Assembly: GCF_963921235.1 (NCBI RefSeq)
Contig: NC_086097.1
Coordinates: 160,396,001-160,460,000 of the forward strand
DNA length: 64,000 bases
Direction: 5' to 3'
Source of the DNA: Mobula hypostoma
Taxonomy: Eukaryota
Part shown: positions 3,833 through 56,195 of the stretch, piece after piece
Position numbering within the stretch: the stretch's first letter is position 1
How the letters are laid out: each line of letters opens with the position of its first letter
Notes under the pieces: model-generated
Told to the model about the DNA's origin: nothing
The model's input: only the letters and a program-made list of their open reading frames with translations
Database searches by the model: none
Translations under genes and position numbers: made by a program

Positions 3833-3869
3833 AGTTACTGTTTCAGGTTGAAGATTCTTCGTCAGAGTA
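3833..3869 (-). ncRNA. Degenerate minimal hammerhead ribozyme motif in old Penelope pLTR fragment
   Basis: Minus strand: TACT-CTGACGA-AGAATCTTCAACCT-GAA-ACAG-T-AACT. Confidence 0.5.
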
Positions 3870-4885
3870 TAAACTGCCTTTTCTAACACCTGCAGATTTT
3901 CACATTTCAGTAACGCTGACCTAATCAGGCTGGCTCAAATGGCCTTTCTCCCTCCTGTATATCATTTGTAGCTTCATGTAAAAAAAAAGTGCAGAGACTG
4001 GGTAAAGATGGAACAACTCCATCCAGACATGGCAACAATAACAATTGAGAATAGGAGAAAGCCCAAAAACCAATTTATTTGATAACATTTCTCAGGAAAT
4101 GTGATTTAGAGCTCAGAAAAGGCAACAGTATGGAAAAACAGATGAACAAAATCAATCTATATTGAGCAATTTCTGAATTCAGTATTCTGAAAGACATAAA
4201 GATCACACAGTTGAGATTTTCATATTTTTGATATGAATCAATATAGAAGGAGGACAAAGACGAATATTAAAATTGAAATATTTCTCCGATGTTCTGCTTT
4301 TCTGGGAGGGACCTCAGGATTAATATTTCTCTTGAAAGAATAGCTAGCAGTGATGATGCATGATTCGAGAGTCAGTATGAAACCAGTCAGCCTTAGGCCA
4401 TTGATAGAGTTCGGGAGAACACTGAAGAAGGCTTTGAAGATGAACAAAATCTTGGCATCATCCCCCTACCAAATCTTTGCATCTAAATTAAAAGAGAAAT
4501 AGCACTGAAAATCTTCTTAGTTTACTTAGAGTAATATTTCAGCAGTCGCCTCACCCAGCTGTTTTTATTTACTTATTCATTTTTCATAAATTCATTTCTT
4601 TGGTCTATGTCTGTCCTGTTTTTTTTATGTAAAAAGACATTTCATGCAATTTTTCATGTTGTCACATGAATGCCAATATTGTAAATGCATTGAAACAACT
4701 TGGCTGCAGGTGAGAGCTAGTTCAGTAGCTTGGACCTTCAGTACTGCAGCCAAATGTTACCTGATCCCTTCGCCTCTCCCACATGCAATACTCTATGCTG
4801 TTTTCTGAGATCATGTAGAGTGAATTGAATTGGCTGATAATCGGTTCTGTAATGGTGGGGAATCCCAGCAAGAAACCAATTTAAA

Positions 4886-5050
4886 ATCAAATCAGGTTTA
4901 TTATCACTCTCAGCTGTTGTGAAAGTTGTTGTTTTGTGGCAGCAGTGCAATGCATGAGATAATAAATTACTATAAGTTACAATAAAAAGAATAAAATAAA
5001 TAATGCAAAAGAGGAATAGTGATACAGTGTTCATGGGATCATGGACCATT
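4886..5050 (-). mobile_element. Rex1-type LINE 3' tail fragment
   Basis: ATCAGGTTTATTATCACT...GAAAGTTGTTGTTTTGTGGCAGCAGT, same as the tail of the 29.6 kb element. Confidence 0.65.
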
Positions 5051-5559
5051 TCATTAGGTCACACACTTGGCACTTTTAGGTGTACATGTTTGCAAATGCT
5101 TCAGCATTGTTCCTGACACTCATTTGCTTGGCCTTGCAATCATTGAAGAGACTCTTCTCTCACTGGCTATTTTTTGGGCACCACCATTCATGACTAAATG
5201 TGTGAAACTGCAGAGCTTTGATGTCTTCTATTAGTTGTGAGATTGCCTGGCCTTGATCATTGTCTGGTGTATACTATGCATGAGACCCTGTACTGAACCA
5301 TCTCAAGGGTGGATTCTCACTTTTAGCTGTGTCTTGTGTTGCTCCCCTGAGTTCATCCCAGGATCTGTTAGCAATGCTAGAATGCGAGATGAGCTGAGCC
5401 AAGAAGTTTTAGATGTGATGGTCTGCACTTGTTCAGGTGCTGATGGTCCACAGTGCCTTGTGGATGCTGAATTTGGAGTGGCCAGATCTGTTCCATTTAG
5501 GGTGGAGGGTGTTCCTTGGTCTCCACAAGGACTGGCTGGCAATCATTTCTCTTCTGTGT

Positions 5560-52241: not shown

Positions 52242-53871
52242 TTAAGTAGCACTGATGAGCACATTTACATTGATAATGAGATGGGTGTATAGCCTGTCTG
52301 TGAAAACACACCAGTGGCATGGAAACGTGCCAGGAGTTTTCACCTGTGTGCTCAGCAGGAAGGAAGCACATGAATTGAAGAACTTGAGAAATTGCTGCCC
52401 AGAGCATATTGTGTCAGTGTTAGTACATTAAACTCAGAAAAGCCCCTGGCTGAGGGAGAAATATATGGGCAATCTGATTTTGAGCAGAGTTATTGGCATT
52501 TATTGGCATGAAGATGCCTTGATTACTTTTTCTTCTTTCTGAGGTGTTCCCTTGCCTTGCTCATAAGAAAGTAATTCATAAGAAAGTTATGGAAAACCTG
52601 ACTGCAGTGTTAATATACAGTATGCCATGCTTTTATGTCACACTTCTGAAGAAAATTATGTGTCTTTCCTCTTTAATACATTTTGCATCATTCTGTCCAT
52701 CCTTAGTCTCTCATGCATGGCAATTAAACAGCAGCCACTGTTTACATCAAACTCAGCAGTGAGTCTGTAAAATTACTCACATGTATATGAGCTGGAACAG
52801 TCAGATCTCTAACACTAACTAAACCAAACAAAATCCTCAATTAACTCATTTTCTTTCAGCTTTAAAATCTATCAGACTGTTCTTACGAAGAGGCAATTCC
52901 AGTATAAATTCAAGTTTGCTATCTATATGTATTTATCATTATTTATAGCTGTAAAGCCTTCGCCTTCCCTGCGGTGACACTTACTAAAACACCAGGCATG
53001 TGTGGAAGTTCAGTGTACATTTGTATTCCATCAGGCTCACAATGTGATCTCCCTCGAGATAGGATCACTGACATTCTGTAATGAGGTGGCAGCAATAACC
53101 TTTCTCAATACAGAATGTTCAATAAACTCTCCAAAGGATGAGAAATTGTGCTCAGGTTTACGCCTTTTATGGCATTTGATGGGATGCACATTAGCACCAA
53201 CCACTGTTAAATCAACGGACTGAAGCCTCATATGATAACAAGCCAGTGAAGAGACGGCATTGTTACATATTTAACAAATCCTGACTTGATTTATCTCAGA
53301 AGAAATGCAGGAATCCTAATTTAAAGGCCTTATTTTGATTCTGTTCTTACTGCAAACAGAAGAAGTACTTTTCTCACTTGAGAGGCCAACGAATGGAACT
53401 GGTGAGGGGGAGGGGGTGGCATGGTGATGGTAGCAGGGGAAGTTTCAGTGTTGAATTAGATTACATTTATTACCTCATGGGTTTGGACTGTAATTAAAAC
53501 ATGCTTTGTGATTGAATTGAAAAGGTATTAATACAGATAGTTAAATAATACTTTCCCAGTGCACTTTAATTATGGTTACAACAGCAAGTGAAAGACTGAT
53601 CATTATGTGATACTTGACTCAACACCTGATTTCCATAGCTTGCTTGGCATCTCAAGCTCTACTCAATCTAATATCTCCTCCACCACTTTAAATTCCCTGG
53701 CATTAAAATATCAGATGATCTGTCCTGAGTTTAGCGTGCAAGTGTCATTGCAAAGAAGACTCAATAGCACTTCTACTTTCTTAGAAGTTTGAGTATATTT
53801 AGCATGACATCAAAAACTTTGGCAAACTTCTATATATAAACGGTGGAGAGTATCCTAACTGGTTGCAATAT

Positions 53872-54294
53872 TGTTGCATGAATGAGGTCACCTGAGAAAA
53901 GTACTGGTAAATACAAAGCAGCTTTTTTATTCCACAGAACAAGGTACAACAGGCATCATATGGAGACGCTTTTGGTTGAAAGATCTGCCTGGTCCAACAT
54001 GAGGCTCGATATTTGATGTGCTAAACATCAAAGGACAATTTCATATTTACAATGTATGGATAATGCTTTCTCTGAATCTATGTACAAACTTCACACCTCC
54101 TGATTTGCATGCACACCACAGACATCCAACTGAATTTTAATCAGCGTTGTCTGGTCTAGGATTCATTGTCTTTAGGAACCCATTGTTCAGAGCTGCACTC
54201 CAAATTAAATGCACAATACATATTCAGATGTGAAGACTGGGAGCCAAAGTTATTTGCTAAATGTAAATGTGCTGAACCCAAAAATTGTACACAC
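53872..54294 (-). mobile_element. Possible solo LTR between a Rex fragment and the CR1
   Basis: TGTTG...CACA ends, reverse AATAAA near 53926; no clean TSD. Confidence 0.35.
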
Positions 54295-55333
54295 AGCATC
54301 ATGTGGGATGAGACCTCTAGTGTCACTGATGACTACACCTGCAAGAAGTGCATCCAGCTGCAGCTTCTAACAATCCGTGTTAAGGAGTTGGAGCTGGAAC
54401 CGGATGAACTCTGGATCATTCGGGAGGTAGTTACACCCAAGATACATGCAGGACACAGATAACAGGGTGACAATCAAGTGGGGGAAAGAAGATAGGCAGC
54501 CAGTGCAGAGTATGCCGTGGCCATTCCCCTCCACAATAAGTACTGGATACCACTTTGGAAGGTACGACCTAGCAAAGTTCTAAGTACATTTATTATCAAA
54601 GTATGTATCATCAAGGCAGAGATCAGGTCTCTGGCACTGAGACTGGTTCTATGGGTCAGAAGGAAAGTGGGGAGAAGAGGCAAGATAGTGACACAGGATT
54701 CATTGGTTGGGGGAACAGAAAGGAGGTTCTGTAGATGAGAACGAGACTCCTGGTGCCAAGGTCAGGTACATCTTCAAACAAGTCCACAGCATTCTTAAGT
54801 AGGAGGGTAAGCAGCCAGAAGTTGTGGACCACATCAGTACCAATGTCCTGGGTAGGAGGGTCGATGAGGTCCTGTAAAGGGAATTTTAACTAAAGTGGCA
54901 GGGGGATGGGAACTAGAGCACCAGAACATGTTGTGGAGTTCTGAGCTGTGTATGTTTCGATGCAAGTAGTATGAAAGGTAGATGAGTTTAGGGCATGGAT
55001 CAACATGTGGAATTATGACATCGTAGCTATTAATGAGACGTGGTTGCAGGAGGGGCAGGACTGGCAGCGCAATATTCCAGGGCTCCATTGTTTTGGATGT
55101 GGTAGAACACGAGGGATTAAAGGGGGGAGGGTGGAATTGCTAGTCAAGGAAAATGTCACAGCAGTGCTCAGTCAGGACAGACTGGAGAGCTCATCTAGTG
55201 AGGCTTTATGGGTGGAACAGAGGGATAAGAAAGGTGTGACCACATTATTGGGATTATTTTATAGACCACCCAACAGTCCCTGGGATTCTTAGAGATCGCA
55301 CGCTGTTGGAAGAAACATAAGGTTGTGAAAACA

Positions 55334-56195
55334 CAAACACGAGAAAATCTGCAGATGCTGGAAATTCAAGCAACACACACAAAATGCTAGTGGAACGCAG
55401 CAGGCCAGGCAGCATCTATAGGAAGAAGTACCCAGACGGAAGTGTGTGGCCACTGTGAGATCCTGCTTCCTTCCAGGTGAGGCAACACTTCACCTGTGAG
55501 CCAGCTGGGGTGATATACTGCGTCTGGTGCTCCCGGTGTGGACGTCTATATATTGGTGAGACCCGACACAGATTGGAAGATCGCTTCGCTGAACACCTAC
55601 AACCTGTCTGCCAGAGGAAGCAGGATCTCCCAGTGGCCACACTTTTTAATTCCATGTCCCATTCCCATTCCGAGATGTCAATCCATGGACTCCTCTACTG
55701 TCGAAATGAAGCCACACTCAGGTTGGAGGAACAACACCTTATATTCCGTCTGGGTAACCTCCAATCTGATGGCATGAACATTGATTTCTCTGACTTCCGT
55801 TAATGCCCCTCCTCCCCTTCTTACCAATTCCTGATTTATTTATTTATTTTTCTTCTTTCTTTCCCTCTCACAATAACTCCTTGCCTGCTCTCCATCTTCC
55901 TCTGGTGCTCCCCTCCCCCTTTCTTTCTGCCAAGGCCTTCTGTCCTATGATATTCCCCCTTCTCCAGCCTTGTACGCCCCTTTTGCCAATCAACTTCCCA
56001 GCTCTTAGTTTCATTCCTCCCCCTCCTGTCCTCTTCTATCATTTCAGGTCTCCCCTTCCCCCTCCCACTTTCAAATCTCTTACTCTCTCTTTTTTCCGTC
56101 AATCCTGACGAAGGGTCTCGACTCGAAACGTTGTCAGTACTTCTTCCTATAGATACTCCCTAGCCTGCTGTGTTCCACCAGCATTTTGTGTGTGT
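55334..56195 (+). mobile_element. Penelope-like element 3' part (GIY-YIG + pLTR) with inverted 5' pLTR
   Basis: ORF 55477-55803 GVIYCVWCSRCGRLYIGET..EEQHLIFRLG..GMN; inverted arms 55373-55430 vs 56137-56195; TSD AGGTTGTGAAAACA (55320-55333) / AGGGTGTGAAAACA (56196-56209). Confidence 0.95.
56101..56136 (+). ncRNA. Minimal type-I hammerhead motif with intact core and ACGT palindrome
   Basis: AATC-CTGACGA-AGGGTCTCGACTC-GAA-ACGT-T-GTCA; stem I decayed. Confidence 0.72.

What the first reader, a model, noticed from the sequence alone, without database searches (positions are those of the whole stretch)
3833..56136. Dispersed family of minimal hammerhead ribozyme motifs carried by Penelope-like pLTRs
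Seen: about a dozen related 36-38 nt motifs, at 3833-3869(-), 7349-7384(-), three at 13975-14088, 16620-16657(-), two at 27125-27244(-), 38362-38397(-), ~42752-42784(-), 48064-48101(+) and 56101-56136(+). Their consensus is AGTC-CTGACGA-AGGGTCTCGGCCC-GAA-ACGT-C-GACT: stem I (AGTC/GACT), the CUGANGA core, a short stem II, GAA, a palindromic ACGU in place of helix III, then the cleavage nucleotide. Stem I appears to co-vary between subfamilies (AGTC/GACT vs AGTT/AACT). Established: Penelope-like elements are known to carry minimal type-I hammerheads with a palindromic helix III that cleave as dimers. Inference: this lineage has a high-copy ribozyme-bearing retroelement family. Each copy here has 1-3 or more lesions, mostly CpG decay, so these copies may be inactive relics.
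Basis: partly seen in the sequence, partly recalled or inferred. Interest (0 to 1): 0.72.

Follow-up and report, generated by a model that had tools for sequence, protein, structure and literature searches.

The report
Decayed Penelope-element hammerhead motifs, known kind
The repeated 36-base motif is the minimal hammerhead ribozyme signature that Penelope-like jumping genes are already known to carry near their 3' end, here scattered as mutated and likely inactive leftovers through what is likely a cartilaginous-fish genome, so the catch is right but ordinary.

Summary
Confirmed, but a known kind. All 12 listed motifs are present, plus 2 more and several tail-only fragments. Two lie about 290-300 nt behind the stop of a Penelope-like ORF with a GIY-YIG nuclease and the Neptune/Nematis zinc-finger linker. 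Insertions show the published Penelope signature: inverted 5' arms, an optional 30-nt tail, target duplications. Genome contigs laid on one copy restore its two lesions in about 80% of depth, so the family's core is intact. Related motifs behind homologous ORFs in metagenome contigs covary in helix I. Corrections: CpG decay explains 34 of 106 differences, not most; AACT is often itself CpG decay, so AGTT/AACT covariation rests on 2 copies; two copies keep an intact core, but none keeps core, palindrome and helix I together. Cleavage was not tested. This matches the min-HHR of Cervera and De la Pena 2014. The scan has already reported this family many times elsewhere in this genome. One lead: 9 of 14 copies begin at the outer edge of helix I.

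The parts
3833..3869 (-). Minimal hammerhead motif, old divergent copy; helix III region damaged; preceded by a short inverted tail fragment
   Evidence: E 0.004; inverted arm p 0.012
7287..7384 (-). Motif (7349-7384; G8 and A9 lost) plus tail
10621..10726 (+).
   Evidence: (E 8e-17)
13911..14187 (.). 277-bp head-to-head insertion: left arm tail+motif (13975-14011, minus), right arm two tandem motifs (about 14013-14049 and 14052-14087, plus) and the full tail; interrupts an LTR-retrotransposon-like RT; 10-bp target duplication with 1 mismatch (13901-13910 / 14188-14197)
16529..16760 (-). Motif (16621-16656; helix I intact, G5 lost) with pyrimidine-rich upstream part and full tail
27043..27244 (-). 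Head-to-tail pair of motif+tail units (motifs 27209-27244 and 27125-27160); the upstream one has the U-A first pair in helix I
38266..39765 (-). Longest Penelope-like copy, 5'-truncated, 1.5 kb, flanked by an exact 8-bp duplication (38258-38265 / 39766-39773)
38680..39762 (-). Open frame, 360 aa: end of RT, thumb, CX4CxxC linker, GIY-YIG nuclease with CxxC insert
38362..38397 (-). Motif closest to the family majority; two lesions, both CpG transitions (G8 and 15.2)
38266..38361 (-). Conserved tail behind the motif, with two 3' end classes about 30 nt apart
41835..42139 (.).
42663..42784 (-). Degraded motif (about 42749-42784) plus tail
48065..48189 (+). Motif (48065-48100) with all 11 core positions intact, palindrome and helix I damaged; full tail
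55334..56195 (.). Second Penelope-like copy: inverted tail arm 55334-55431(-), GIY-YIG fragment 55465-55803(+), pyrimidine tract, motif, short tail; 14-bp target duplication with 1 mismatch (55320-55333 / 56196-56209) inside a LINE endonuclease
56101..56136 (+). Motif with intact core and ACGU palindrome but broken helix I (1 contiguous pair)
49441..49537 (.). Tiny inverted pair of tail fragments without the motif core
9526..9620 (-). Old partial copy (3' half of motif plus tail); similar partials at 25135-25212(-), 27315-27385(-), 38070-38118(+), 42541-42622(+)

Best explanation
These motifs are the 3' ends of a very abundant Penelope-like retrotransposon family, likely of the Neptune clade, whose pseudo-LTR carries a minimal type-I hammerhead; the copies in this window are truncated, mutated insertion products that likely no longer cut. 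In the active element the RNA would be transcribed from a partial tandem so that two motifs can pair through their ACGU palindromes and helix I strands into a double hammerhead, likely with help from the element's protein, and cut after GUC (inferred from published work on other families; untested here). The element's GIY-YIG nuclease would nick both target strands and its RT would start at one of two sites about 65-70 and 95-105 nt behind the cut site, which gives the observed target duplications, inverted arms and optional 30-nt tail (structures shown; mechanism inferred). Every motif-bearing copy is still joined to sequence behind the cut site, so the RNA that was copied had not been cut at that motif (inferred from the sequence). 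Because copying starts just behind the motif and usually stops early, the motif is spread as a passenger; after insertion it decays like its neighbours.
For: Position: 287 and 302 nt behind the stop of Penelope-like ORFs in two copies that are 80% identical over 625 nt. ORF: GIY-YIG hits (one above and one below the Pfam cut-off), 72 longer relatives, most with RT Pfam domains, best named one a bamboo shark protein at 64% over 59% of the query; linker CKQNKCYTC and GVIY-CxxC-YIG. Family majority: 146,441 contigs of run X1 laid at 80% likeness; inside the motif the listed variants are restoration of G8 (81% of depth), restoration of the ACGU palindrome (80%) and C for U at 11.1 (26%); run X10 gives 97%, 93%, 15%. 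Relatives: 122 matches in 120 metagenome loci; 30 of 122 have a same-strand hit to the ORF's C-terminus, 29 of them 53-172 nt upstream of the motif; helix I, not part of the search pattern, is Watson-Crick in 64 of 96 cells against 36.8 in shuffles (0 of 20,000); on 39 aligned motifs 67.9% of cells pair, 50 two-sided changes, 0 of 500 shuffles, slid registers 24-44%. Architecture: inverted arms, two end classes, duplications, as in PMC3846280, PMC8557442 and PMC11167929. Neutral decay: core columns 82% conserved, tail columns 80% (12 rows); no copy keeps core, palindrome and 3 bp of helix I together.
Against: No cleavage or transcript was shown. Nearest-neighbour folding of the window majority favours an inactive fold in which G5-G8 pairs with the cleavage-site strand (-10.0 against -6.0 kcal/mol), and the double hammerhead (-9.5) lies far above the dimer minimum (-28.3) (tertiary contacts are not counted). 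The relatives' core is conserved by construction of the pattern, and their covariation counts sequences, not independent events. One search is limited to contigs 80% like one copy, depth is not copy number, and 13 variant rows were not shown. Only 17 of 66 relatives with 400 nt of upstream DNA have an ORF hit. Only 1 of 12 tested intervals has a target duplication better than all 60 random pairs; four more score 8-9, which 8 of 60 random pairs also reach. No full-length element with two direct pLTRs is in the window, and Neptune against Nematis was not tested by a tree.
Confidence: 0.88

Rival explanations
1. The motif is kept in the family as a structural or protein-binding signal (or a stop and switch point for the RT), and cleavage plays little or no part in transposition.
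For: All motif-bearing copies derive from RNA uncut at that motif. For Anolis Poseidon, catalytic mutants did not affect insertion in vitro and no RNA-seq reads ended at the site (PMC11167929, parts 1-2). Folding favours an inactive form. 9 of 14 copies begin at the outer edge of helix I rather than at the cut site.
Against: The exact catalytic core with a cleavable GUC/GUU triplet is the family majority and H17 is C or U in 119 of 122 relatives, a position not in the pattern; the Anolis motif does cut once protein is added (PMC11167929). This rival is compatible with the best explanation as to origin.
Confidence: 0.3
2. The short copies are an independent non-autonomous element (a SINE-like unit or non-LTR retrozyme) that is transcribed and mobilised on its own, not truncation products of the long element.
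For: Most copies are only motif plus tail, contig depth peaks on the tail, several start at the same edge, and two local tandems of the unit exist (14013-14087, 27043-27244). A 2026 preprint derives animal retrozymes from pLTRs and includes one chondrichthyan (10.64898/2026.07.22.740005, parts 1-3).
Against: Lengths form a continuum from 50 bp to 1.5 kb; arms are mostly inverted with target duplications, the Penelope signature; there is no long tandem array and no canonical hammerhead with loop-loop contacts, which define retrozymes (PMC7229834 passages); units of one insertion are about 80% alike, that is old.
Confidence: 0.1
3. Some copies in this window are selected, working ribozymes acting on a host transcript.
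For: 48064 and 56101 keep all 11 core positions.
Against: Their helix I has 2 and 1 contiguous pairs and the double-hammerhead fold has positive energy; core and tail decay at the same rate; the 37 frames scanned against Pfam gave only transposon-type domains and one weak PUF match, no host gene (37 frames chosen by hand, short exons would be missed).
Confidence: 0.02

Closest known systems
Minimal hammerheads (min-HHR) in pLTRs of metazoan Penelope-like elements (Cervera and De la Pena 2014, PMC4209133; main text parts 1-2 of 4 and supplementary file 2 parts 1-2 of 3 read)
   Same: CUGANGA, one extra base, helix II opening with G10.1, GAAA, palindromic 15.2-16.2 with no loop 3, short helix I, pyrimidine/U-rich upstream flank; mostly single motifs on truncated copies; occasional opposite-strand pairs; the Acropora Neptune example in Fig. 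S3 has the same layout with a 4-bp helix II.
   Different: No cartilaginous fish is among the species in Table S1 or Fig. S3 as read; helix II (4 bp, CUCG loop) is shorter than in most listed fish motifs; in this subfamily 11.1 is mostly U (74-85% of depth), giving G.U or a shifted A-U pair instead of the usual G-C.
Neptune-clade EN+ Penelope-like elements (Craig et al. 2021, PMC8557442, passages; Arkhipova et al. 2013, PMC3846280, passages)
   Same: C-terminal GIY-YIG with CxxC insert, CX2-5CxxC linker, 5' truncation, inverted 5' arm, optional 30-40 bp tail at one end, short target duplications.
   Different: Only the last 360 aa are in the window; the linker is shared with Nematis and no RT tree with named references was made; targets here are other retroelements, not microsatellites.
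Poseidon of Anolis carolinensis (Frangieh et al. 2024, PMC11167929, parts 1-2 of 4)
   Same: Motif upstream of two internal RT start sites that define the tail; both target strands extended; uncut RNA as template.
   Different: Poseidon lacks the zinc-finger linker; its ORF starts inside helix II, which could not be tested here; its first start lies about 85-92 nt behind the cut site against 63-70 and 95-104 nt here.
Animal non-LTR retrozymes (PMC7229834, passages; bioRxiv 10.64898/2026.07.22.740005, parts 1-3 of 5)
   Same: Type-I hammerhead on a short non-coding unit related to pLTRs; local dimers occur.
   Different: No long tandem arrays, minimal rather than canonical motif, direct link to an ORF-bearing element.

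Membership tests
min-HHR of metazoan PLEs | Core CUGANGA ... GAAA ... UH in type-I order | tested here: met
   Majority of 14 window copies, 2 copies intact, family majority in contigs
min-HHR of metazoan PLEs | Extra base between A9 and 10.1; helix II opening with G10.1-C11.1 | tested here: met
   Extra A in 13 of 14, G10.1 in 12 of 14; partner is U more often than C in this subfamily, a mild departure
min-HHR of metazoan PLEs | Palindromic 15.1-16.1, no stable helix III | tested here: met
   ACGU in 80% of X1 depth; intact in only 2 of 14 window copies because it holds a CpG
min-HHR of metazoan PLEs | Short helix I with compensatory changes between families | tested here: met
   Across relatives; inconclusive inside the window alone
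min-HHR of metazoan PLEs | Located in the pLTR behind an RT-GIY-YIG ORF | tested here: met
   Two window copies and 29 of 122 metagenome matches
min-HHR of metazoan PLEs | Two motifs in direct pLTRs around a full ORF | tested here: inconclusive
   No full-length element in the window; no genome held
min-HHR of metazoan PLEs | Self-cleavage as a dimer or with protein | not testable with these tools
   Needs in vitro transcription; no raw RNA reads were available
EN+ Penelope-like element | RT followed by C-terminal GIY-YIG with CCHH motif | tested here: met
   (CSRC between GVIY and YIG, His residues downstream; RT core upstream of motif 5 is truncated but present in relatives P0002, P0004, P0042)
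EN+ Penelope-like element | Inverted 5' arm, optional 30-40 bp tail, target duplication | tested here: met
   55334-56195 and 13911-14187; loose ends at 38266/38271 and 38298
Neptune clade | CX2-5CxxC linker between RT and nuclease (absent in Penelope/Poseidon, shared with Nematis) | tested here: met
   CKQNKCYTC at residue 227 of the frame (definition)
Neptune clade | RT phylogeny with named Neptune references | not tested
   No named reference sequences were on hand; the preprint found only Neptune and Poseidon in vertebrates
Non-LTR retrozyme | Tandem arrays of units each with a complete hammerhead | tested here: not met
   Only two local dimers, both with damaged cores
Rfam hammerhead families | Match to a curated covariance model | tested here: not met
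   No hammerhead match at E<=5; two weak unrelated hits. Likely because the motifs lack helix III and are decayed (inference)

The most novel reading that the evidence does not exclude
The hammerhead is where Penelope cDNA synthesis is made to stop and switch: once the RT has copied the 5' strand of helix I, the new cDNA end can pair with the earlier-copied 3' strand (in itself or in the partner cDNA primed from the other target strand), which would build the inverted and tandem junctions of pLTRs at the motif's outer edge, and make arms that start at the cut site without any cleavage. 9 of 14 copies here begin at that edge, 5 with an identified inverted or tandem partner. A splice acceptor at the same edge, as in Drosophila Penelope, is an alternative cause.
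Probability: 0.2. Interest if true: 0.55.

Novelty: new member of a known kind. Interest (0 to 1): 0.14.

Why it matters
As it stands it adds a cartilaginous-fish Neptune-like family to a list of hammerhead-bearing Penelope elements known since 2014 from cnidarians to reptiles; it changes no concept. What these ribozymes do for the element is still open (PMC8557442 and PMC11167929 say so). A family this abundant offers a large natural record of insertion junctions, so the one useful lead is statistical: whether 5' junctions pile up at the helix I edge for a mechanistic reason. That needs the whole genome, not this window.

Tried and rejected
Whole-genome analysis: no genome held. Rfam scan: no hammerhead. 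Exact 34-nt pattern in metagenome contigs: 0; relaxed pattern in viral contigs: 0. No close relative of the motif-plus-tail unit among the 120 metagenome loci (one weak profile hit, L047, on the motif alone). Expression: no RNA holder listed; run X10 is only guessed to be RNA; raw-read runs X21 and X22 laid 0 reads, so no test; contigs cannot show RNA ends. Hit at 40759(+) dropped as chance (no tail); weak round-one hit at 34630 dropped (not recovered in round two). A conserved tail hairpin is predicted (AGAUGCUG with CAGCAUCU, -5.6 kcal/mol) but has no covariation support (term 0.02; 7 copies). A branch-point-like UACUAAC and pyrimidine tract ending in AG lie just upstream of helix I in the 38362 copy, but the branch A is replaced in 54% of X1 depth and the AG of helix I is fixed by pairing, so a splice acceptor is a lead only. 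Selection on individual copies: rejected (core 82% against tail 80%). Target duplications were not convincing in 7 of 12 intervals. Literature: five searches showed no paper devoted to hammerheads of shark or ray Penelope elements or to junction clustering at helix I; listings only, and the library lacks most subscription papers. Supplementary file 1 of PMC4209133 and the preprint's supplements were not seen and may list chondrichthyan families.

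
Full report
Observation. A profile of motif plus downstream tail found 26 hits and none on the reversed window; 21 have E<1e-3 and cover 2,026 bases, about 3% of the window. 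Fourteen copies span the whole motif.

Since H17-1.1 is a CpG, AACT appears by decay opposite an unchanged AGTC in 3 copies; a true U-A pair is seen clearly in 2 (27210, 48064), so covariation inside the window is inconclusive. Two copies keep all 11 core positions, but a strict descriptor finds none with core, palindrome and three contiguous pairs of helix I. Core columns are no better kept than tail columns (82% against 80%, 12 rows), as expected for neutral decay after insertion.

What carries the motif. At 38680-39762 (minus) an open frame of 360 aa holds the end of an RT, a CX4CxxC linker and a GIY-YIG nuclease with a CxxC insert; a second nuclease fragment lies at 55465-55803. The two copies are 80% identical over 625 nt, and each has a pyrimidine tract and then the motif, 287 and 302 nt behind the stop. 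Seventy-two longer relatives were found, most with RT domains; the closest named one is a bamboo shark protein, 64% identical over 59% of the query, which suggests a cartilaginous fish (inference). The linker marks Neptune or Nematis and excludes Penelope/Poseidon (PMC8557442 passages); a 2026 preprint found only Neptune and Poseidon in vertebrates. Neptune is therefore likely; no tree was made. The rest of the window, as far as scanned (37 hand-picked frames), is other retroelement debris.

Insertion anatomy. 55334-56195 has an inverted tail arm, the nuclease fragment, the motif and a shorter tail, between 14-bp duplications with one mismatch, better than all 60 random pairs, inside a LINE endonuclease whose frame repeats the same three residues on both sides. 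13911-14187 is a head-to-head insert with three motifs in an LTR-retrotransposon-like RT, with a 10-bp duplication; the long copy has an exact 8-bp duplication. These two score no better than 8 of 60 random pairs and are accepted because they abut the element ends; 7 of 12 intervals gave nothing convincing. Element 3' ends fall 63-70 or 95-104 nt behind the cut site, in the window and as loose ends in contigs. This is the published Penelope structure with an optional 30-40 bp tail, inverted arm and short duplication (PMC3846280 and PMC8557442, passages), explained for Anolis Poseidon by two internal RT start sites and extension of both target strands (PMC11167929, parts 1-2 of 4).

Family-level test. 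No genome is held, so contigs of public runs were laid on 38240-38720 at 80% likeness. X1 gave 146,441 contigs. Within the motif the listed variants restore G8 (81% of depth) and the palindrome (80%), and give C at 11.1 in 26%; X10 agrees (97%, 93%, 15%). Limits: depth is not copy number, only contigs near this subfamily count, 13 rows were hidden, and two raw-read runs laid nothing. No RNA evidence was obtained.

Independent relatives. Thirty have a same-strand hit to the C-terminus of the window's ORF, 29 of them 53-172 nt upstream; among 66 with 400 nt of upstream DNA, 17 do. Helix I was not in the pattern, yet it pairs in 64 of 96 cells of 32 distinct stems (shuffle mean 36.8, 0 of 20,000; slid registers 16-40 of about 96). 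On 39 aligned motifs (7 of the 14 window copies, 32 relatives) 67.9% of cells pair with 50 two-sided changes, 0 of 500 shuffles, slid registers 24-44%. Relatedness inflates such counts, but pairs such as ACA/UGU, CUA/UAG, CGA/UCG, GCA/UGC and CCA/UGG show real covariation. H17, also free, is C or U in 119 of 122.

Mechanism. Shown: the motif, its place, the intact family majority, covariation, the insertion structures, the decay. Inferred: transcription of a partial tandem, pairing of two motifs into a double hammerhead, cleavage after GUC, help from the element's protein. Published minimal motifs cut weakly and only as dimers (PMC4209133), and the Anolis one only with protein, without being needed for insertion in vitro (PMC11167929). 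Folding agrees with weak activity: the majority prefers a form in which G5-G8 pairs with the cleavage-site strand (-10.0 against -6.0 kcal/mol) and the double hammerhead lies far above the dimer minimum; 26 of 65 natural relatives show a paired core, mostly those with U or G at position 7. Every motif-bearing copy runs through the cut site into the tail, so its template was uncut there.

The one lead. Five of 14 copies keep a pyrimidine-rich upstream part (4 match other copies' upstream DNA at p<=0.006); 9 lose it within a few bases of helix I, 5 of them at an identified inverted or tandem partner and 4 without one, where a different subfamily cannot be excluded. The largest listed loose-end group in X1 is at the same edge (576 contigs at 38397), but its consensus is pyrimidine-rich in element sense with low agreement, so it mixes truncation with other subfamilies; a few joints link that edge to the base behind helix I. 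Fold-back or cross-pairing of new cDNA through helix I would explain this, as would a splice acceptor at that edge, which Drosophila Penelope has (PMC4209133). Earlier notes of this scan (e1-9958889, e1-9848786) report the same clustering genome-wide; they prompted the test and are not counted as support.

Comparison and verdict. Every sequence feature of the 2014 minimal hammerhead of Penelope-like elements is met; catalysis and a full two-pLTR element could not be tested. Cartilaginous fish are not in that paper's species lists as read, but the 2026 preprint covers one, and five literature searches showed nothing specific (listings only). The scan itself holds dozens of notes on this family in the same genome. 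Verdict: real, correctly interpreted, a new member of a known kind; interest 0.14.

Noticed in passing
window 38398-38420 (minus): A UACUAAC-like branch sequence, pyrimidine tract and AG lie directly upstream of helix I; 16657-16670 (minus) has a pyrimidine tract ending in CAG that overlaps helix I. Possible splice acceptor, as in Drosophila Penelope, but the branch A varies in the family.
   Followed up: partly
window 14005-14019 and 14044-14055: Both junctions in the three-motif insert are near-palindromes centred on helix I strands; the two plus-strand motifs form a 40-nt tandem duplication.
   Followed up: partly
window 38362-38369 (minus) and 27209-27216 (minus): The six bases around the cut site are themselves palindromic in both helix I forms (GUCGAC and GUUAAC); not so in the metagenome relatives. 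Could favour competing dimers.
   Followed up: no
window 55444-55471: A 27-nt inverted copy of an internal ORF segment (55615-55641) sits at the junction between the two arms, suggesting an extra template switch.
   Followed up: no
window 23045-23820: Minisatellite of 31-32-nt units that keeps long open frames on both strands.
   Followed up: no
window 30216-32703 (minus): Nearly complete LINE with APE endonuclease and RT frames; related 3' ends at 1-166 and 19553-19805.
   Followed up: no
window 13216-16019 (plus): Degraded LTR-retrotransposon-like pol (RT, integrase) that hosts the three-motif insert.
   Followed up: partly
L006, L048: Metagenome loci with two motifs on opposite strands 59 and about 340 nt apart, the same inverted arrangement as in the window.
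   Followed up: no
P0003, P0067: Predicted proteins that fuse part of this ORF to a LINE endonuclease or to an NLR-like protein (a Mobula record); likely gene-prediction artefacts across insertions.
   Followed up: no
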